Positions 9,639 to 18,600 of a stretch of DNA of 64,000 nt are shown piece after piece. Every line of letters begins with the position of its first letter. Position 1 is the first letter of the stretch. Source of the DNA: Octopus sinensis (lineage: Eukaryota); contig NC_043017.1 in the NCBI RefSeq assembly GCF_006345805.1, positions 31,248,001-31,312,000 on the forward strand, in the 5' to 3' direction. The position numbers were made by a program.

Positions 9639-12600
9639 TAATAACAAGAACAGCAGCAACAACAAGAGCACTCAGAGATCGCAAGCTTCCGCCATGGCAA
9701 CACCAACGACCTCGCAAAGATTAGCTGAAGATAATTTTAAAATCTTTTAAATGAGAATATCTGAAATAAATTCGACTCCTCTCACAAATGAGAATATTAT
9801 AAATGAACCCGACTGCTTTCAAATATTAAGTAAAAAAAGAAAACAAACGGAAATATAATCTAGAATTCTTGTCCAGTACTTGATCGATCCCAATGGAAGT
9901 CATGGAATGTAAAGGTGGGTGTGCTGACCGTGTTTGTAATACAGTGTGTGTGTCATCTGCAGTTGGAACAAGGACAGTTTTCTCTATGAAGGCCACTTTT
10001 AGTCTATCGACTGATATAGTGTCTTTACAACCATTAAGGTCTATAGGGAGAAATTTTTCCAAGCGTGAAAGAAAACGGAAAGGACCTGCATATGGTGCTA
10101 TTAACGGGATTTTAACAAGATCGTTGCGCACAGAAACGTGAGTCCATGAAAGCTTCCTTCAAGGCAAAGCTAGAAATGCAATTGTCAGGTCTCCAATTAG
10201 AAGCTTTTAATTTTAAGCGTGGTTGTTATTTAACAATTTGATAAAAGCTATTATCGAAATTTTTCGGTTGACAGTCCTTTGAAAATGACATCATCTAATG
10301 TATTCTATCATTTTAAAGATACGCCTGTGTGGTTCGAGGGTACTCTGGCTGCTCTTTCTTGCAAGTTAAATGCCCATGGATAATTTCCTTTCTTATTTTT
10401 TTATAAATATTGGAGATGGAGCGTCTAAGCCTGTTGCATCCATATCATCTCTTATATCTTGAAAAAAGATTCAAGTCAATATATCAATTAATCATTGTAT
10501 ACACTAGAAAAAGAAAAGGGTTAATCTTCAAAATATAACGAATTGCAACATGCCGAGAAATTAAGACTTTTTGAGATAATTTTAAATTAATTAATTTCAT
10601 AATTATGAGAACGCCGGACAAAAAGACGTACAGTATTTGTTCCGGCTCTTTTTCCCAACAGTTCAATTGCACACTAGGCATAACAACAACGTGAACTTCC
10701 AACCTGTTGTCTCTTGAGGTCTCTGGGTGAGACTTGGAGCCAACTTGTACAAATATAAAGCAAAAGTCAAACATATAAGTCATTTATGCTTTTCACACTT
10801 TCGTTGTTGATAACATTAAGCACAGAGACGTGTTAATCAATAAGCCGCCGCCTTATAGAATCGTCTCATTGTATTTAAACAATAAGCCCGGTTTCAGCAT
10901 GTTTGAAGGCGGCGAGCTGGCAGAAACGCTCGCGCGCCGGGCGTAATGCGTAGCCGTATTTCGTCTGTCGTTACGTTCCGAGTTCAAATTCCGCCGAGGT
11001 CGACTTTGCCTTTCATCCTTTCGGGGTCGATAAATTAAGTACCAGTTACGCACTGTGGTCGATGTAATCGACTTAATCCGTTTGTCTGTCCTCTCTGTGT
11101 TTAGCCCCTTGTGTGTAGTAAAGAAATAGGTATTTCGTCTGTCGTTACGTTCTGAGTTCAAATTCCGCCGAGGTCGACTTTGCCTTTCATCCTTTCGGGG
11201 TCGATAAATTAAGTACCAGTTACGCACTTAATCCGTTTGTCTGTCTTTGTTTGTCCTCTCTGGGTTTAGCCCCTTGTGGGTAGTAAAGAAATAGGTTTCA
11301 GCATGTTTGATATATTTGGCCACAGAGCTTTCTTCGCTACACGGTTCTTTCTTTTTTTTTCGTTTGTTAATAAGTTACTAGAAACATTTCTATGGCGTGG
11401 AATTAAAATACTAGTCATTGCATAATGTAAAGAACTCATTCGGTCATGAATGACCATGGGATTGCACCAAGAAAGTTACCCTCCTGGACACAAGTTCGGG
11501 CAAGGTTGTTTATGGAAGACCAGCAATCATCTATACATACCAGCCTCCCCTCTCTCCGCCACCAATGTTGAAAAAGGGAAAGGCAAAGACGCCTATGAGG
11601 CTCGGCATCAGCGTTACTGCAACTCATTTCTACAGCTGAGTGGACTGGAGCAACGTGAAATAAAGTGTCTTGCTCAAGAACACAACACTCAACCCAGTCC
11701 TGGAATCGAACTCAATACCTTATGATTGTGCGCTCAATGCTTTAACCACTGTACCATGCATCTTAATTGCTAATACATTACAAATGTTACTTTAGTGTAG
11801 GGGCAGCGAGCTGGCAGAAATGTTAGCACGCCGGGTGAAATGCGTAGCCGTATTTCGTCTGCCGCACATGTGTTCGTGAAGTAAGAATTGCTGTTTCGTG
11901 GTGTTAATATTGTTAACAACTGTTGTTTCTTGTTAAACTGTTGAATAACTTAACTGTTGGAGTTTTCAATTGAAAACACTTAGTGCTTGTGGTAGCACGC
12001 GTTGTTCATTCCCCCTTTGGGGGGAAGAATGTCGTCTAGCATGGAGCCTACCGTTGGAGCAGAAATACTTGTTTCTCCTGTTGAGAGGAGGAAATACATG
12101 TCCGGCGAGGAGCCAACTACAGACAAGGAAATAGGGGTTTCCCCCGCTACAAGAAGGAATAGCAGAGAGGATAATATATTTGATATTTTTGGAGATGTGT
12201 CTGAGAGCTCGTCAGAACTTTCACCAGAAGAGTTTCCGACTTTGCCAGAGAACAAAGGCATTGTGTCGAAGAGAATAATTGATGTGCCTAGCATCCAGAT
12301 AGAACCAAAAAATGGAAAAAAAAGTTTTGCGTTGGCTGCTGGGGGTGGAACCCAGATACTGTCGACGAATAAAAGCGAAATTATGAAATACAGCAAAATG
12401 ATGGAAATAAATGACAACAGTGTGAAAATTGAACCTCCGCAAAAGTTATTACAGGAAGAAAAGCAAAAAACAATAATTTTCAAAACATATTGTCTACAAA
12501 ATAGAAAAATTGAAAGAATGTCAGAAGAGAAAATAGAAAAGTGCTTAAAGCCAATATTGGGCGACGTAGTATTTCTGAGAAGAGGAAAAAAATTCGGAAC

Positions 12601-15600: not shown

Positions 15601-18600
15601 GAGGAGTTTGTTACGGCTTTCGCGGATGATATCACTATCAGTGTAACCACAGTGGTACGCCTACGTGAAGTAGGTAAGACTATTGAGGCTTACGAGGAGG
15701 TAGCAGGAGCAAAGATTAACCGGGAAAAGTCGGTCGGCTTGCAGCTCGGCACCTGGGTTGGCAAGTCGATGCCTTCAGACAGTGTTGTTAGGCGCTGGAC
15801 GGAGGGACCGGTTAAGTTGCTGGGAGTCTGGTTTGGACCAGGCCTCCAGATAGAGAAGAACTGGACGGAGGTATTGAGCAGGGTGGCTGCAGTAGTCAAG
15901 ACTTGGTCTTGGCGGTGGCTATCCCTGAAAGGGAGGGCGGAAGTGGCCAATGTGTTTATCGCATCGGTCATTACCTACCGCCTGACTGTCGTGCCCTGTC
16001 CGGATTCGTGGTTGATCAGGTTGGAGAGACAGCTCTTTCGCTTTTTGTGGAAGGGCAGGTCGCCACTTGTGAAACGCTCTGTCTGCTGTCAAAAGCCTTT
16101 AAATGGAGGTTTAGGGATGCCTTGGTTAATGATGCGCAGACATGCGTTGAGGTTGAGGCACCTCTGGATTCTCCTGGATAGTGAACGGGTGTGGTCTCCG
16201 CTGGCCAGACAAATGTTCCCTGAGTTCAAGAGTTTTTGCGAACAGGAAGCCTGGTGTTCTCGTAGACCGAGGTCGAGTGAGTGGCATAAAGAGTGCCGTA
16301 AGGCCCTCTTGCTGTTCCGGCGCTCGGGCAACGCCAGCGGTGGGGGTTCCACACGGATTTTATATAGTGGGTTGGTAGAGTCTGAATGCGACGATGGCCT
16401 GGGGTCGACTCTAGGTCTCGGATTTATTCAACTGGACAGCTTGTTTCATCGTACATTCGGGTTGAGAACGTTGGACAACTTCCAAAAGTCCTTAACCTGG
16501 CAATGCTACAGAGGTGCCTTGCCCGTTTGGGATAAGCTCGCAAGACATGGTAAACGTCAGTCGCCGACCTGTCCAAGATGCGGTGGGGACAGGGAAACCG
16601 TCCCTCACGCTATTGTTCAGTGTCCGGAGATAACTGAAATGTGGGCTTATGCTGAACATCTGTTGTCCGGCGAAGGAAGAGTACGGCTGTCGACTGAGTC
16701 AATTATAAAAATTGACCCACCGGGAGTTCTAACGAACGAAGGTAAGAATTGTTTTCTCACGGTTGTAGCAATAGCAAAAGAGGCTGTATGGAATACTAGG
16801 ATAAAAGGAATTAAGACAGGCAACTTTATCTCTGGTGACAATTTACGATCCTTTTTTTCTTTTCATTTGAAAAGGAAACTGTGGCTGGAGAAGAGGTGTC
16901 TGTCAGAGTGTACGTTCCAAAAGAGATGGAAGTATGTTGCACGAGTGTTGTGCGTGCAAGGAACCGTGTGAATAGACGAGAAAAAAAAAAAAAAAGGAAA
17001 AATAAAAAGGTATCAGCGGTAGATCGGGGCTTGTGGGATCGGAGCGTAACTTGATCATCGCTTCATTTGTATTGTTTTTGTACTGTGTATTCCATTCGAT
17101 TTTTATGTATTGTATTTTATTTTTGATGTCACATTTATGTAAAATCATATCGATTCACTGATCCCATCAGTTGTACTGTCCATATCTATGTTTGGCCCCC
17201 GGTGGGCAATAAAGAAATTCGTATTTCGTCTGCCGTTACGTTCTGAGTTCAAATTCTGCCGAGGTTGACTTTGCCTTTCATCCTTTCGGGGTCGATAAGT
17301 TAAGTACTAGTTACGCACTGGGGTCGAGGTAATCGACTTAATCCGTTTGTCTGTCCTTGTTTGTCCTCTCTGTGTTTAGCCCCTTGTGGGTAGTAAAGAA
17401 ATAGGTATTTCGACTACCGCTACGTTCTGAGTTCACATTCCGCCGAGGTCGACTTTGTCTTTCATCCTTTCGGGGTCGATAAATTAAGTACCAGTTACGC
17501 ACTGGGGTCGATGTAATCTACTTAATCCGTTTGTCTGTCCTTGTTTGTCCTCTCTGTGTTTAGCCGCTTGTGGGTAGTAAAGAAATGGGTATTTCGTCCG
17601 CCGTTACGTTCTGAGTTCAAATTCCGCAGAGGTCGACTTTGCCTTTCATCCTTTCGGGGTCGATAAATTAAGTACCAGTTACGCACTGGAGTTAATGTAA
17701 TCGACTTAATCCGTTTGTCTGTCCTTGTTTGTCCTCTCTGTGTTTAGCCGCTTGTGGGTAGTAAAGAAATGGGTATTTCGTCCGCCGTTACGTTCTGAGT
17801 TCAAATTCCGCAGAGGTCGACTTTGCCTTCATCCTTTCGGGGTCGATAAATTAAGTACCAGTTACGCACTGGAGTCAATGTAATCGACTTAATCCGTTTG
17901 TCTGTCCTTGTTTGTCCTCTCTGTGTTTAGCCCCTTCTGGGTAGTAAAGAAATAGGTATTTTGTCTGCCGGATTATGGAAAATTTGGCAGATTATGGAAA
18001 ATTCTTTCGCTTTATACGCTTGTAGGAAAAATGTAGATAACATTGGAAAAGCGAGGAGGTATGTAGCATGACAACGCACCGTCTTTTGATCCACGCCCAG
18101 TAAGCTAAACAACAAGTCTTTATTAACATTTTCATCAATAAATTTTCTACGCTTCCTTTTTATTCAATAATTTCTATCTCTTTCAATAAGTTGTATGTCA
18201 AATAAAATGTAATATCACACCTTCACACAGCACTTACACACACATACGCGCACACACACAGACATACAGAAAGAAAGAAGTTCTCATATTTGGTATACAC
18301 ACACAAACTAATCGAAGAAGCTGTCATAATTTATGTCGGTTCACGCGAATGCGCGAAATTATGCGCATTTTTTTTTGTTTTTGTTTTTGCCATTTTTTAT
18401 TTCAAAATTTATATTAAAATTTTGAAAGAAAAATATTTTTTGCCGAATCATACTGTCGGATTTTTCAAACATAAATTTAAAATAAAACAAGGAAAAGTTC
18501 AAAAAGAAAGACAGGCAATTTAACAAAAAAAAAAAAGAAAGAACTAAAACAAAATTGGCATTTCGTATGTTTTCGCAGACAGAATCAAAACATAACACAG

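What the first reader, a model, noticed from the sequence alone, without database searches (positions are those of the whole stretch)
11802..17970. Intact Tx1-like LINE inserted into its own likely partner SINE: a candidate self-targeting LINE/SINE system
Seen: the 5.35-kb LINE sits in sense orientation inside SINE-A. The head is upstream, the body resumes downstream, and the SINE-internal 16-mer CGTATTTCGTCTGCCG is duplicated exactly. The same position is the junction of every SINE-A tandem unit in the window (4949, 11130, 17405, 17589, 17773, ~56357) and the site of a nested SINE insertion at 33.7 kb. Established: Tx1-group L1-clade elements often have sequence-specific AP endonucleases that target multicopy sequences (Xenopus Tx1 in DNA transposons, Keno in U2 snRNA, Dewa in tRNA arrays). 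Inference: this LINE mobilises a SINE that carries the LINE's preferred target, so each SINE insertion creates a new harmless landing pad. I cannot confirm novelty without a literature or Repbase search.
Basis: partly seen in the sequence, partly recalled or inferred. Interest (0 to 1): 0.92.

Follow-up and report, generated by a model that had tools for sequence, protein, structure and literature searches.

The report
LINE lodged in its partner SINE
An intact jumping gene (a Tx1-like LINE) sits at a repeatedly used spot inside a short repeat that probably depends on it for copying; similar arrangements are already known, and this window alone cannot show that the spot is a truly specific target.

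Summary
A 5,355-bp LINE (11865-17219, +) with two open frames sits inside a ~231-bp SINE, in the same orientation, between two exact copies of a 16-bp string. The same point is the junction of all 6 head-less tandem SINE units in the window. It is also the site of one nested full-length SINE. The LINE and the SINE share a ~42-nt 3' tail at 81% identity and similar duplication lengths (13-17 bp), so a LINE/SINE partnership is plausible.

Three of the four SINE loci with a clear target-site duplication lie in unrelated DNA, so targeting is a preference and not strict specificity. Target starts fit a short GGTAT-like motif, and SINE copies supply 9-41% of such sites here. One tandem unit is a recombinant of its neighbours.

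Close precedents exist: crocodilian Tx1-Mar LINEs and SINEU SINEs share a repeat target and form tandem insertions, and Alu has an Alu-in-Alu hot spot. Only one LINE copy was available and no genome-wide test was possible. I rate it a new variant of a known kind, of moderate interest.

The parts
11802..11848 (+). SINE-A head (5' part of the cloverleaf-like region) upstream of the insertion
   Evidence: Matches the heads of 9 other copies at 77-92% identity. nhmmer model positions 2-64 map to 11803-11865.
11849..11864 (+). 5' copy of the 16-bp target-site duplication (site T)
   Evidence: Exact match; 16/16 with 0 of 300 controls.
11865..17219 (+). Full-length L1-superfamily (Tx1-like) LINE, 5,355 bp. 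5'UTR 11865-12028, 3'UTR 16972-17219.
   Evidence: Bounded by the duplication. It is the only copy in the window by blastn and tblastn.
12029..13558 (+). ORF1, 509 aa, with a CCHC zinc knuckle at residues 308-324
   Evidence: Open frame. Pfam zf-CCHC 22.9 bits against a cut-off of 20.8.
13570..16971 (+). ORF2, 1,133 aa: AP-type endonuclease (22-229), reverse transcriptase (513-754), zf-RVT (973-1025)
   Evidence: Open frame. Pfam E-values 2.3e-10, 3.5e-29 and 2.3e-7. Solved LINE-1 ORF2 protein 221 bits over residues 5-867.
17177..17219 (+). LINE 3' tail shared with the SINE-A tail. It includes a small GC hairpin and an AATAAA at 17208-17213.
   Evidence: blastn 81% over 42 nt, E 6e-5. nhmmer E 1.1e-4. 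Alignment A3. Hairpin columns 207-210/216-219.
17220..17235 (+). 3' copy of the 16-bp target-site duplication
17221..17955 (+). Four head-less SINE-A units: C1 17221-17404, C2 17405-17588, C3 17589-17772, C4 17773-17955
   Evidence: TRF period 184, 4.3 copies. C3/C4 differ by 1.7%, and C3 is a mosaic of C2 and C4.
17956..17970 (+). Extra terminal copy of the T string (2 mismatches to the 16-mer, contains TTTT), followed by unrelated DNA
   Evidence: Unexplained.
4715..5132 (+). SINE-A locus A: head plus 2 units, junction 4948/4949
   Evidence: No significant duplication.
10890..11310 (+). SINE-A locus B: head plus 2 units (10908-11295, junction 11129/11130), flanked by a 17-bp exact duplication unrelated to T (10890-10906 and 11294-11310)
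   Evidence: 17/17 with 0 of 300 controls.
20670..20902 (-). SINE-A locus D: monomer inserted in an inverted older SINE relative at a different position
33683..33942 (-). SINE-A locus F: full-length monomer (33926-33696) nested at the homologous T position of an older diverged relative. 14-bp duplication at 33942-33929 and 33696-33683.
   Evidence: 13/14 with 0 of 300 controls.
56159..56605 (-). SINE-A locus G: head plus 2 units (56588-56174, junction 56358/56357), flanked by a 15-bp duplication unrelated to T
   Evidence: 14/15 with 0 of 300 controls.
58755..58980 (-). SINE-A locus H: monomer with a slightly truncated head
   Evidence: No significant duplication.
63189..63438 (-). SINE-A locus I: monomer (63425-63201) with a 13-bp AT-rich duplication unrelated to T
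   Evidence: 13/13 with 7 of 300 controls.
24402..24557 (-). SINE-A locus E: 5'-truncated copy (model positions 76-231). Its tail matches the LINE tail best.

Best explanation
A young, apparently functional L1-superfamily (Tx1-like) LINE integrated by target-primed reverse transcription into a preferred insertion point in the head of an abundant ~231-bp SINE. That SINE carries the LINE's ~40-nt 3' tail and is therefore probably mobilised by it or by close relatives. The point lies between the loop and the 3' arm of a long predicted hairpin in the SINE head. It is a hot spot and not an exclusive target. The machinery seems to favour a short GGTAT/CGTAT-like start of the duplicated target. The SINE offers that motif in every copy, so nested insertions pile up there. 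When the incoming element is the same SINE, its copy of the 15-16-nt string can pair with the duplicated target. The new copy then joins without its head, which gives head-less tandem units separated by the string (inferred). An incoming LINE, or a SINE entering a diverged host, goes in whole with an ordinary duplication (shown once each). Arrays then also grow by unequal crossing-over (shown for unit C3). What is shown: the insertion, its duplication, the shared tail, the recurrent junction, and the insertions outside the site. What is inferred: who mobilises whom, the nick preference, and the homology-guided 5' joining.
For: The LINE is intact: two open frames with endonuclease, RT and zinc-binding domains, and an exact 16/16 duplication. 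It belongs to the L1 superfamily: solved LINE-1 ORF2 protein scores 221 bits against 76 bits for R2. The best named relatives are an Argonauta hians protein at 58% identity and a Danio protein named 'transposon TX1' at 29% identity and 298 bits. Partnership: the last 42 nt are 81% identical to the SINE tail (E 6e-5, E 1.1e-4; alignment). Duplications are 16 bp for the LINE and 13-17 bp for the SINE. Hot spot: LINE, nested SINE F and 6 of 6 tandem junctions fall at the same point, all in sense orientation. The uniform chance per event is 1.4e-4. Recurrence: arrays A and B/G carry different subfamily markers that are also seen in monomers F and I, so the junction formed more than once. A1 is closer to monomer F at another locus (2.2%) than to its neighbour A2 (4.4%). 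Head-adjacent units carry fewer private changes than second units, 10 against 20, binomial p = 0.099, which is suggestive only. The nested SINE with its head intact entered a host whose string differs from its own, as the homology-joining idea predicts. Precedent for the mechanism: tandem SINEU-3 insertions 'sandwiching a TSD', attributed to sequential insertion by Tx1-Mar (PMC4494074, sections 14-16 read).
Against: There is only one LINE copy, so no statistics on LINE targets are possible. Three of the four SINE-A loci with a significant duplication are in unrelated DNA. If the preference is just a 5- to 7-nt motif, SINE sites already make up 9-41% of candidate sites in the window, so the LINE hit is not very surprising. 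The host string of nested copy F does not fit the SGTAT form exactly. Units within arrays are on average more alike (5.25%, 9 pairs) than units between arrays (7.37%, 82 pairs). G1/G2 share one private change, and C3 is a C2/C4 mosaic. Local duplication therefore explains some and possibly all of array growth. Array C ends with the string followed by unrelated DNA, which simple sequential insertion does not predict. Loci A, C, D and H have no detectable duplication. The head was not recognised as tRNA by ARAGORN or Rfam. The hairpin has almost no covariation (1 of 66 pairs, covariation term +0.72). As DNA it is not clearly more stable than shuffles (z -1.44, -2.27, +1.23).
Confidence: 0.55

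Rival explanations
1. Strict self-targeting. The LINE encodes a sequence-specific endonuclease that recognises the 15-16-nt SINE string, as Tx1-group elements recognise their repeats. SINE spread creates dedicated landing pads.
For: LINE, nested SINE and 6 junctions fall at the same nucleotide in the same orientation. Tx1 families with repeat targets and co-targeting SINEs exist (PMC4494074, abstract and sections 14-16). The best named distant hit carries a TX1 name.
Against: SINE-A loci B, G and I have clear duplications in unrelated sequences, and D lies at another site. If the same enzyme moves the SINE, it is not strictly specific. There is no second LINE copy to test. Placement in the Tx1 clade was not tested by phylogeny.
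Confidence: 0.15
2. No targeting at all. The LINE landed in a very common repeat by chance. The tandem units come from DNA-level duplication (unequal crossing-over or slippage) or from dimeric master copies that transpose as a unit. This would resemble the SINE-derived satellites of squamates.
For: SINE-A covers 5.3% of the window. C3 is a recombinant of C2 and C4, and C3/C4 differ by only 1.7%. The duplications of B and G flank whole dimers. Short arrays of partial SINE units with one longer terminal unit are described in squamates and attributed to unequal recombination (PMC10702118, discussion read). Tandem SINE arrays are also reported in bivalves (PMC11481361, passages).
Against: This does not explain why the LINE and the nested full-length SINE, which are unambiguous insertions, hit the same nucleotide as the junctions. 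The uniform chance is 1.4e-4 each. Arrays in different subfamilies share the same junction. A1 is closer to a monomer elsewhere than to A2.
Confidence: 0.2
3. Homing by the RNA and not by the enzyme. Transcripts of LINE or SINE copies that already sit next to the string read through into it. The LINE has AATAAA 10 nt before its end, and the string holds a T run that could stop RNA polymerase III. The 3' end of the RNA then pairs with a nicked copy of the string elsewhere and primes reverse transcription there. Alternatively, the reverse transcriptase jumps from the string back to a tail within one event.
For: All four loci without a detectable duplication (A, C, D, H) have GGTA directly after the tail. 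Array C carries the whole string after its last tail. This is what a 3' read-through copied into the insert would give. The junction sequence is the same in 5 of 6 arrays' joins.
Against: There is no direct evidence for the RNA ends. GGTA after the tail is equally explained by a nick preference. In D the GGTA is part of the host repeat. The tail and the string are not complementary in the sense needed for a simple template jump (read).
Confidence: 0.1

Closest known systems
Tx1-Mar LINEs and SINEU SINEs of crocodilians (Kojima 2015, PMC4494074; abstract and sections 14-16 read)
   Same: An L1/Tx1-type LINE and non-autonomous SINEs share a preferred position in a multicopy repeat. The preference is graded (90%, 23% and 13% of copies for the three SINEU families). 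Tandem SINE insertions are separated by the duplicated target.
   Different: There the target is a third party, a Mariner DNA transposon. Here it is the SINE's own head, so joins lose the head and give partial-unit arrays. There the case rests on hundreds of copies. Here it rests on one LINE and nine SINE loci.
Xenopus Tx1L in Tx1D, Keno, Kibi/Koshi and other target-specific Tx1-group elements (named in PMC4494074 section 15 and PMC3747384 passages; details of Tx1L/Tx1D recalled)
   Same: APE-type L1-superfamily LINEs that insert in repeated sequences.
   Different: Those families show most copies in one target. Specificity of this LINE is untested, and its putative SINE often inserts elsewhere.
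Alu-in-Alu insertion hot spot in human (Levy et al. 2010, PMC2836564; abstract only)
   Same: A SINE carries a single-nucleotide hot spot for insertion of further copies of the same SINE family, moved by an L1-clade LINE.
   Different: Different motif and host. No head-less tandem arrays are described in the abstract.
SINE-derived satellites of squamates and tandem SINE arrays of bivalves (PMC10702118 abstract and discussion; PMC11481361 passages)
   Same: Short arrays of partial SINE units with one longer terminal unit that reaches the SINE end. Growth is attributed to unequal recombination.
   Different: Those papers do not link the unit boundary to an insertion site of the partner LINE.
Stringent-type LINE/SINE pairs with a common 3' tail (PMC3747384 passages; PMC4176376 abstract from a search listing)
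   Same: The SINE 3' end resembles the LINE 3' end, including a small hairpin, which is the usual basis for trans-mobilisation.
   Different: Such pairs are best known outside the L1 clade. Here the shared part is short (~42 nt, 81%) and was not tested functionally.

Membership tests
L1 superfamily / Tx1 group of non-LTR retrotransposons | ORF2 with N-terminal AP-type endonuclease followed by reverse transcriptase | tested here: met
   Pfam Exo_endo_phos residues 22-229 and RVT_1 residues 513-754. Solved LINE-1 ORF2 protein aligns over residues 5-867 at 221 bits, against 76 bits for R2.
L1 superfamily / Tx1 group of non-LTR retrotransposons | Placement inside the Tx1 clade in an RT phylogeny with reference families (Tx1L, Keno, Kibi and others) | not testable with these tools
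   No Repbase or Dfam references were available. The only hints are a Danio protein named 'transposon TX1 ...' at 298 bits and 29% identity, against 221 bits for solved LINE-1 ORF2 protein. L1-Tx1 families are reported as recently active in Octopus vulgaris (PMC13282606, passages).
L1 superfamily / Tx1 group of non-LTR retrotransposons | Most copies inserted at one position of one repeated sequence | tested here: inconclusive
   There is one LINE copy in the window, and it is at the SINE string. No other copies could be fetched.
LINE-dependent SINE (partner of this LINE) | Short, non-coding, dispersed copies flanked by target-site duplications | tested here: met
   Nine loci. Significant 13-17-bp duplications at 4 of the 8 loci with a head.
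LINE-dependent SINE (partner of this LINE) | 3' tail derived from or shared with the LINE 3' end | tested here: met
   81% over 42 nt, E 6e-5. nhmmer E 1.1e-4. Alignment A3.
LINE-dependent SINE (partner of this LINE) | Head derived from a small RNA gene (tRNA) with an internal polymerase III promoter | tested here: inconclusive
   ARAGORN found 0 genes. Rfam gave no hit at gathering score, and no tRNA hit at E up to 10 on copy H. RNAalifold draws a cloverleaf-like fold, but only 1 of 66 pairs shows a compensatory change.
Co-targeting LINE/SINE systems (Tx1-Mar/SINEU type) | LINE and SINE found at the same position and orientation of the same repeat | tested here: met
   LINE (16-bp duplication), nested SINE F (14 bp) and 6 junctions at the same point, all in sense orientation. 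The numbers are small.
Co-targeting LINE/SINE systems (Tx1-Mar/SINEU type) | Excess of independent insertions in the target over chance, shown on many copies including truncated ones | not testable with these tools
   No eukaryotic genome collection was available. Within the window, 3 of 4 SINE loci with a duplication lie outside the site.
SINE-derived satellite | Tandem array of partial SINE units with a longer terminal unit reaching the SINE end | tested here: met
   Four arrays of 2, 2, 4 and 2 units, each with a head only on the first unit. The arrays are very short.

The most novel reading that the evidence does not exclude
The SINE and its LINE form a self-renewing homing system. The 15-16-nt string in the SINE head is a real target, recognised by the endonuclease, by pairing with read-through RNA 3' ends, or by both. 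Every SINE insertion then seeds a new safe landing site for the LINE. Insertion of the SINE into itself, resolved through the shared string, is a retrotransposition route to SINE-derived tandem arrays, that is, to the birth of satellites.
Probability: 0.2. Interest if true: 0.65.

Novelty: new variant of a known kind. Interest (0 to 1): 0.42.

Why it matters
If the preference holds genome-wide, it would be a case where a LINE's favoured landing site is carried by its own dependent SINE. Spread of the parasite's parasite would then create harmless targets for the LINE. It would also split the promoter region of the resident SINE. And it would give a concrete, testable mechanism for how partial-unit SINE arrays (proto-satellites) start: insertion at an internal site, closed by homology. 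SINEs make up about a tenth of octopus genomes, and L1-Tx1 families are reported as recently active there (PMC13282606, PMC8967140, passages). Such a bias could therefore shape a visible part of genome structure. If it does not hold, this is an ordinary young LINE nested in a common repeat.

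Tried and rejected
tRNA origin of the head: ARAGORN and Rfam gave nothing, so I do not claim it.

Hairpin or cruciform as the reason for the hot spot: RNAalifold puts the string in the 3' arm of a 16-bp hairpin. Covariation is almost nil, and DNA folding of three resident sites is not clearly better than shuffles (z -1.44, -2.27, +1.23). 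I keep it as a description only.

Second LINE copies or fragments in the window: none by blastn or tblastn. A tail-only relative at 55069-55108 belongs to another family.

A repeat downstream of array C that could explain the terminal string: none found.

Duplications for loci A, C, D and H: not found.

Age order of units as a test of sequential insertion: 10 against 20 private changes, p = 0.099, not significant.

Tx1 phylogeny: not done, for lack of reference sequences.

Genome-wide flank test: not possible. The phage, plasmid and E. coli collections are irrelevant.

Literature: searches found no paper describing a LINE whose preferred target lies in its own partner SINE, or this cephalopod element. 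Supplementary figures S3-S6 of PMC4494074, which list Tx1 targets, were not seen and could hold a SINE target. Repbase and Dfam could not be consulted.

Complex prediction, structure prediction and fold search were not used, because no claim here depends on them.

The solved human LINE-1 ORF2 entries appear only as rows of the table and were not fetched.

Full report
WHAT IS THERE. The window contains no N. Between 11865 and 17219 on the + strand lies a 5,355-bp element bounded by two exact copies of a 16-bp string, at 11849-11864 and 17220-17235. A flank test gave 16/16 matches, reached by 0 of 300 random controls.

The element has two open frames under the standard code. ORF1 is 509 aa and ORF2 is 1,133 aa, with 11 nt between them. 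Pfam finds a CCHC zinc knuckle in ORF1. In ORF2 it finds an AP-type endonuclease (residues 22-229), a reverse transcriptase (513-754) and the zf-RVT zinc-binding domain (973-1025). Among solved structures the best match is LINE-1 ORF2 protein (221 bits, query residues 5-867). R2 proteins reach at most 76 bits.

In the large protein collection, 226 proteins scored E <= 0.001 among the 8,000 candidates examined. The two best are 58% identical: one is unnamed and one is a hypothetical protein of Argonauta hians. All others are at 43% identity or below. A Danio protein named 'transposon TX1 uncharacterized 149 kDa protein' scores 298 bits at 29% identity.

I conclude that this is an intact, probably young L1-superfamily LINE of a cephalopod-like genome. 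'Tx1-like' is plausible but was not tested by phylogeny. L1-Tx1 families are reported as recently active in Octopus vulgaris (13 families, 421 insertions) and as part of the coleoid repeat set (PMC13282606 and PMC8967140, passages).

THE HOST REPEAT. The sequence split by the LINE is a ~231-bp repeat that I call SINE-A. It is present at nine loci in the window and covers 3,106 of 58,629 non-LINE bases, or 5.3%.
- Eight loci have the head.
- Four loci are arrays: head plus first unit, followed by 1, 1, 3 and 1 further units that lack the first ~48 nt.
- Every one of the 6 internal junctions joins the tail directly to the string that the LINE duplicated. TRF reports three of the four arrays.

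ARAGORN and Rfam do not recognise the head. RNAalifold on seven full-length copies draws a cloverleaf-like fold in which the string is the 3' arm of a 16-bp hairpin. Only 1 of 66 pairs shows a compensatory change. As DNA the hairpin is not clearly better than shuffles. Older relatives that share head and core but not the tail are also present.

PARTNERSHIP. The last 42 nt of the LINE are 81% identical to the SINE-A tail (E 6e-5, E 1.1e-4). A small GC hairpin is kept in both (columns 207-210/216-219). Duplication lengths agree: 16 bp for the LINE and 13-17 bp for the SINE. This is the usual signature of a SINE moved by a LINE with a common tail (PMC3747384, passages). It is inference, not proof, and a closer LINE family may exist elsewhere in the genome.

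IS THE SITE SPECIAL? There are two unambiguous insertions at the same point in the same orientation. One is the LINE. The other is a full-length SINE-A at 33926-33696, nested in an older relative with a 14-bp duplication (13/14 matches, 0 of 300 controls). Under uniform insertion the chance per event is 1.4e-4. Together with the six junctions, this makes the site a real hot spot.

It is not an exclusive target. Of the four SINE-A loci with a significant duplication, three lie in unrelated DNA:
- B: 17/17 matches.
- G: 14/15 matches.
- I: 13/13 matches in AT-rich sequence, with 7 of 300 controls reaching this.

A further locus, D, sits elsewhere in an inverted older SINE. The bases right after the tail are GGTA(T) at A, C, D and H, GGTT at B, GATA at F, and TATA at G and I. 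They are C/GGTA at the string. This points to a short preferred motif. Outside the LINE the window holds 185 [C/G]GTAT sites, 65 [C/G]GTATT sites and 40 [C/G]GTATTT sites. The roughly 16 SINE sites are 9% of the first class and 41% of the last. A modest motif preference multiplied by SINE abundance could therefore produce much of what is seen. F's host string does not fit the motif exactly, so these figures are rough.

HOW THE ARRAYS FORM. Evidence for repeated, independent formation of the junction:
- Arrays A and B/G carry different subfamily markers that are shared with monomers F and I.
- A1 is closer to F (2.2%) than to A2 (4.4%).
- First units carry fewer private changes than second units, 10 against 20, p = 0.099.

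The nested copy that kept its head entered a host whose string differs from its own. Joins within SINE-A lost the head. This fits closure of the 5' end by pairing of the shared string (inference).

Evidence for local DNA-level growth:
- Units within arrays are more alike (5.25%, 9 pairs) than units between arrays (7.37%, 82 pairs).
- C3/C4 differ by 1.7%.
- C3 shares its 5' markers with C4 and its 3' markers with C2, which is the footprint of unequal crossing-over.
- G1/G2 share a private change.

Both processes probably act.

Unexplained: array C ends with the string (17956-17970, carrying a TTTT run) followed by unrelated DNA. Loci A, C, D and H show no duplication. A read-through RNA carrying part of the string would account for both, but nothing here tests it.

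COMPARISON WITH WHAT IS KNOWN. Kojima 2015 (PMC4494074; abstract and sections 14-16 read) shows crocodilian Tx1-Mar LINEs and SINEU SINEs preferring the same positions of a Mariner transposon. The preferences are graded at 90%, 23% and 13% of copies. Tandem SINE insertions 'sandwiching a TSD' are attributed there to sequential insertion. Levy et al. 2010 (PMC2836564, abstract) report a single-nucleotide hot spot in Alu for other Alu insertions. Vassetzky et al. 2023 (PMC10702118, abstract and discussion) describe arrays of partial SINE units with one longer terminal unit. PMC11481361 (passages) reports tandem SINE arrays in bivalves.

The new element here would be that the preferred site lies in the partner SINE itself, and that this links LINE targeting to the unit boundary of SINE arrays. 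Seven literature searches found no description of that. The library is incomplete, supplements were closed, and Repbase and Dfam were not available.

VERDICT.
- Novelty: a new variant of a known kind.
- Interest is moderate at 0.42, because the decisive genome-wide flank test could not be run and one LINE copy cannot carry the claim.

Noticed in passing
window 17956-17970: Array C ends with an extra 15-nt copy of the target string (with a TTTT run) and then unrelated DNA. That DNA itself begins with a ~19-bp direct repeat reaching to about 18003. Simple sequential insertion does not predict this.
   Followed up: partly
window 11622-11764 (minus) and 44488-44625: A different SINE-like repeat lies just upstream of the split SINE-A head. 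It is 76% identical to a second copy in the window.
   Followed up: no
window 4438-4280, 6075-5904, 9385-9237, 20537-20676, 34299-34188, 36058-35954: Older relatives of SINE-A share the head and core but not the LINE-like tail. They may be partners of another LINE or ancestors of SINE-A.
   Followed up: partly
window 55069-55108 (minus), next to (AT)n at 55008-55066: A short element has a 3' tail related to the LINE and SINE-A tail but a different body. It abuts a TA microsatellite, which hints at a related family with a similar AT-rich target start.
   Followed up: partly
window 13350-13447 and 13458-13552: An internal direct repeat (72% identity) lies in the proline-rich C-terminal part of LINE ORF1.
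   Followed up: no
window 11962-11977: A perfect 16-nt palindrome lies in the LINE 5' untranslated region.
   Followed up: no
whole window, e.g. 561-1074, 1468-1832, 21904-22362, 53214-53683, 60765-61134: Long (ATT)n, (TAA)n and (TA)n microsatellites are very dense. This matters for any estimate of AT-rich target availability.
   Followed up: no
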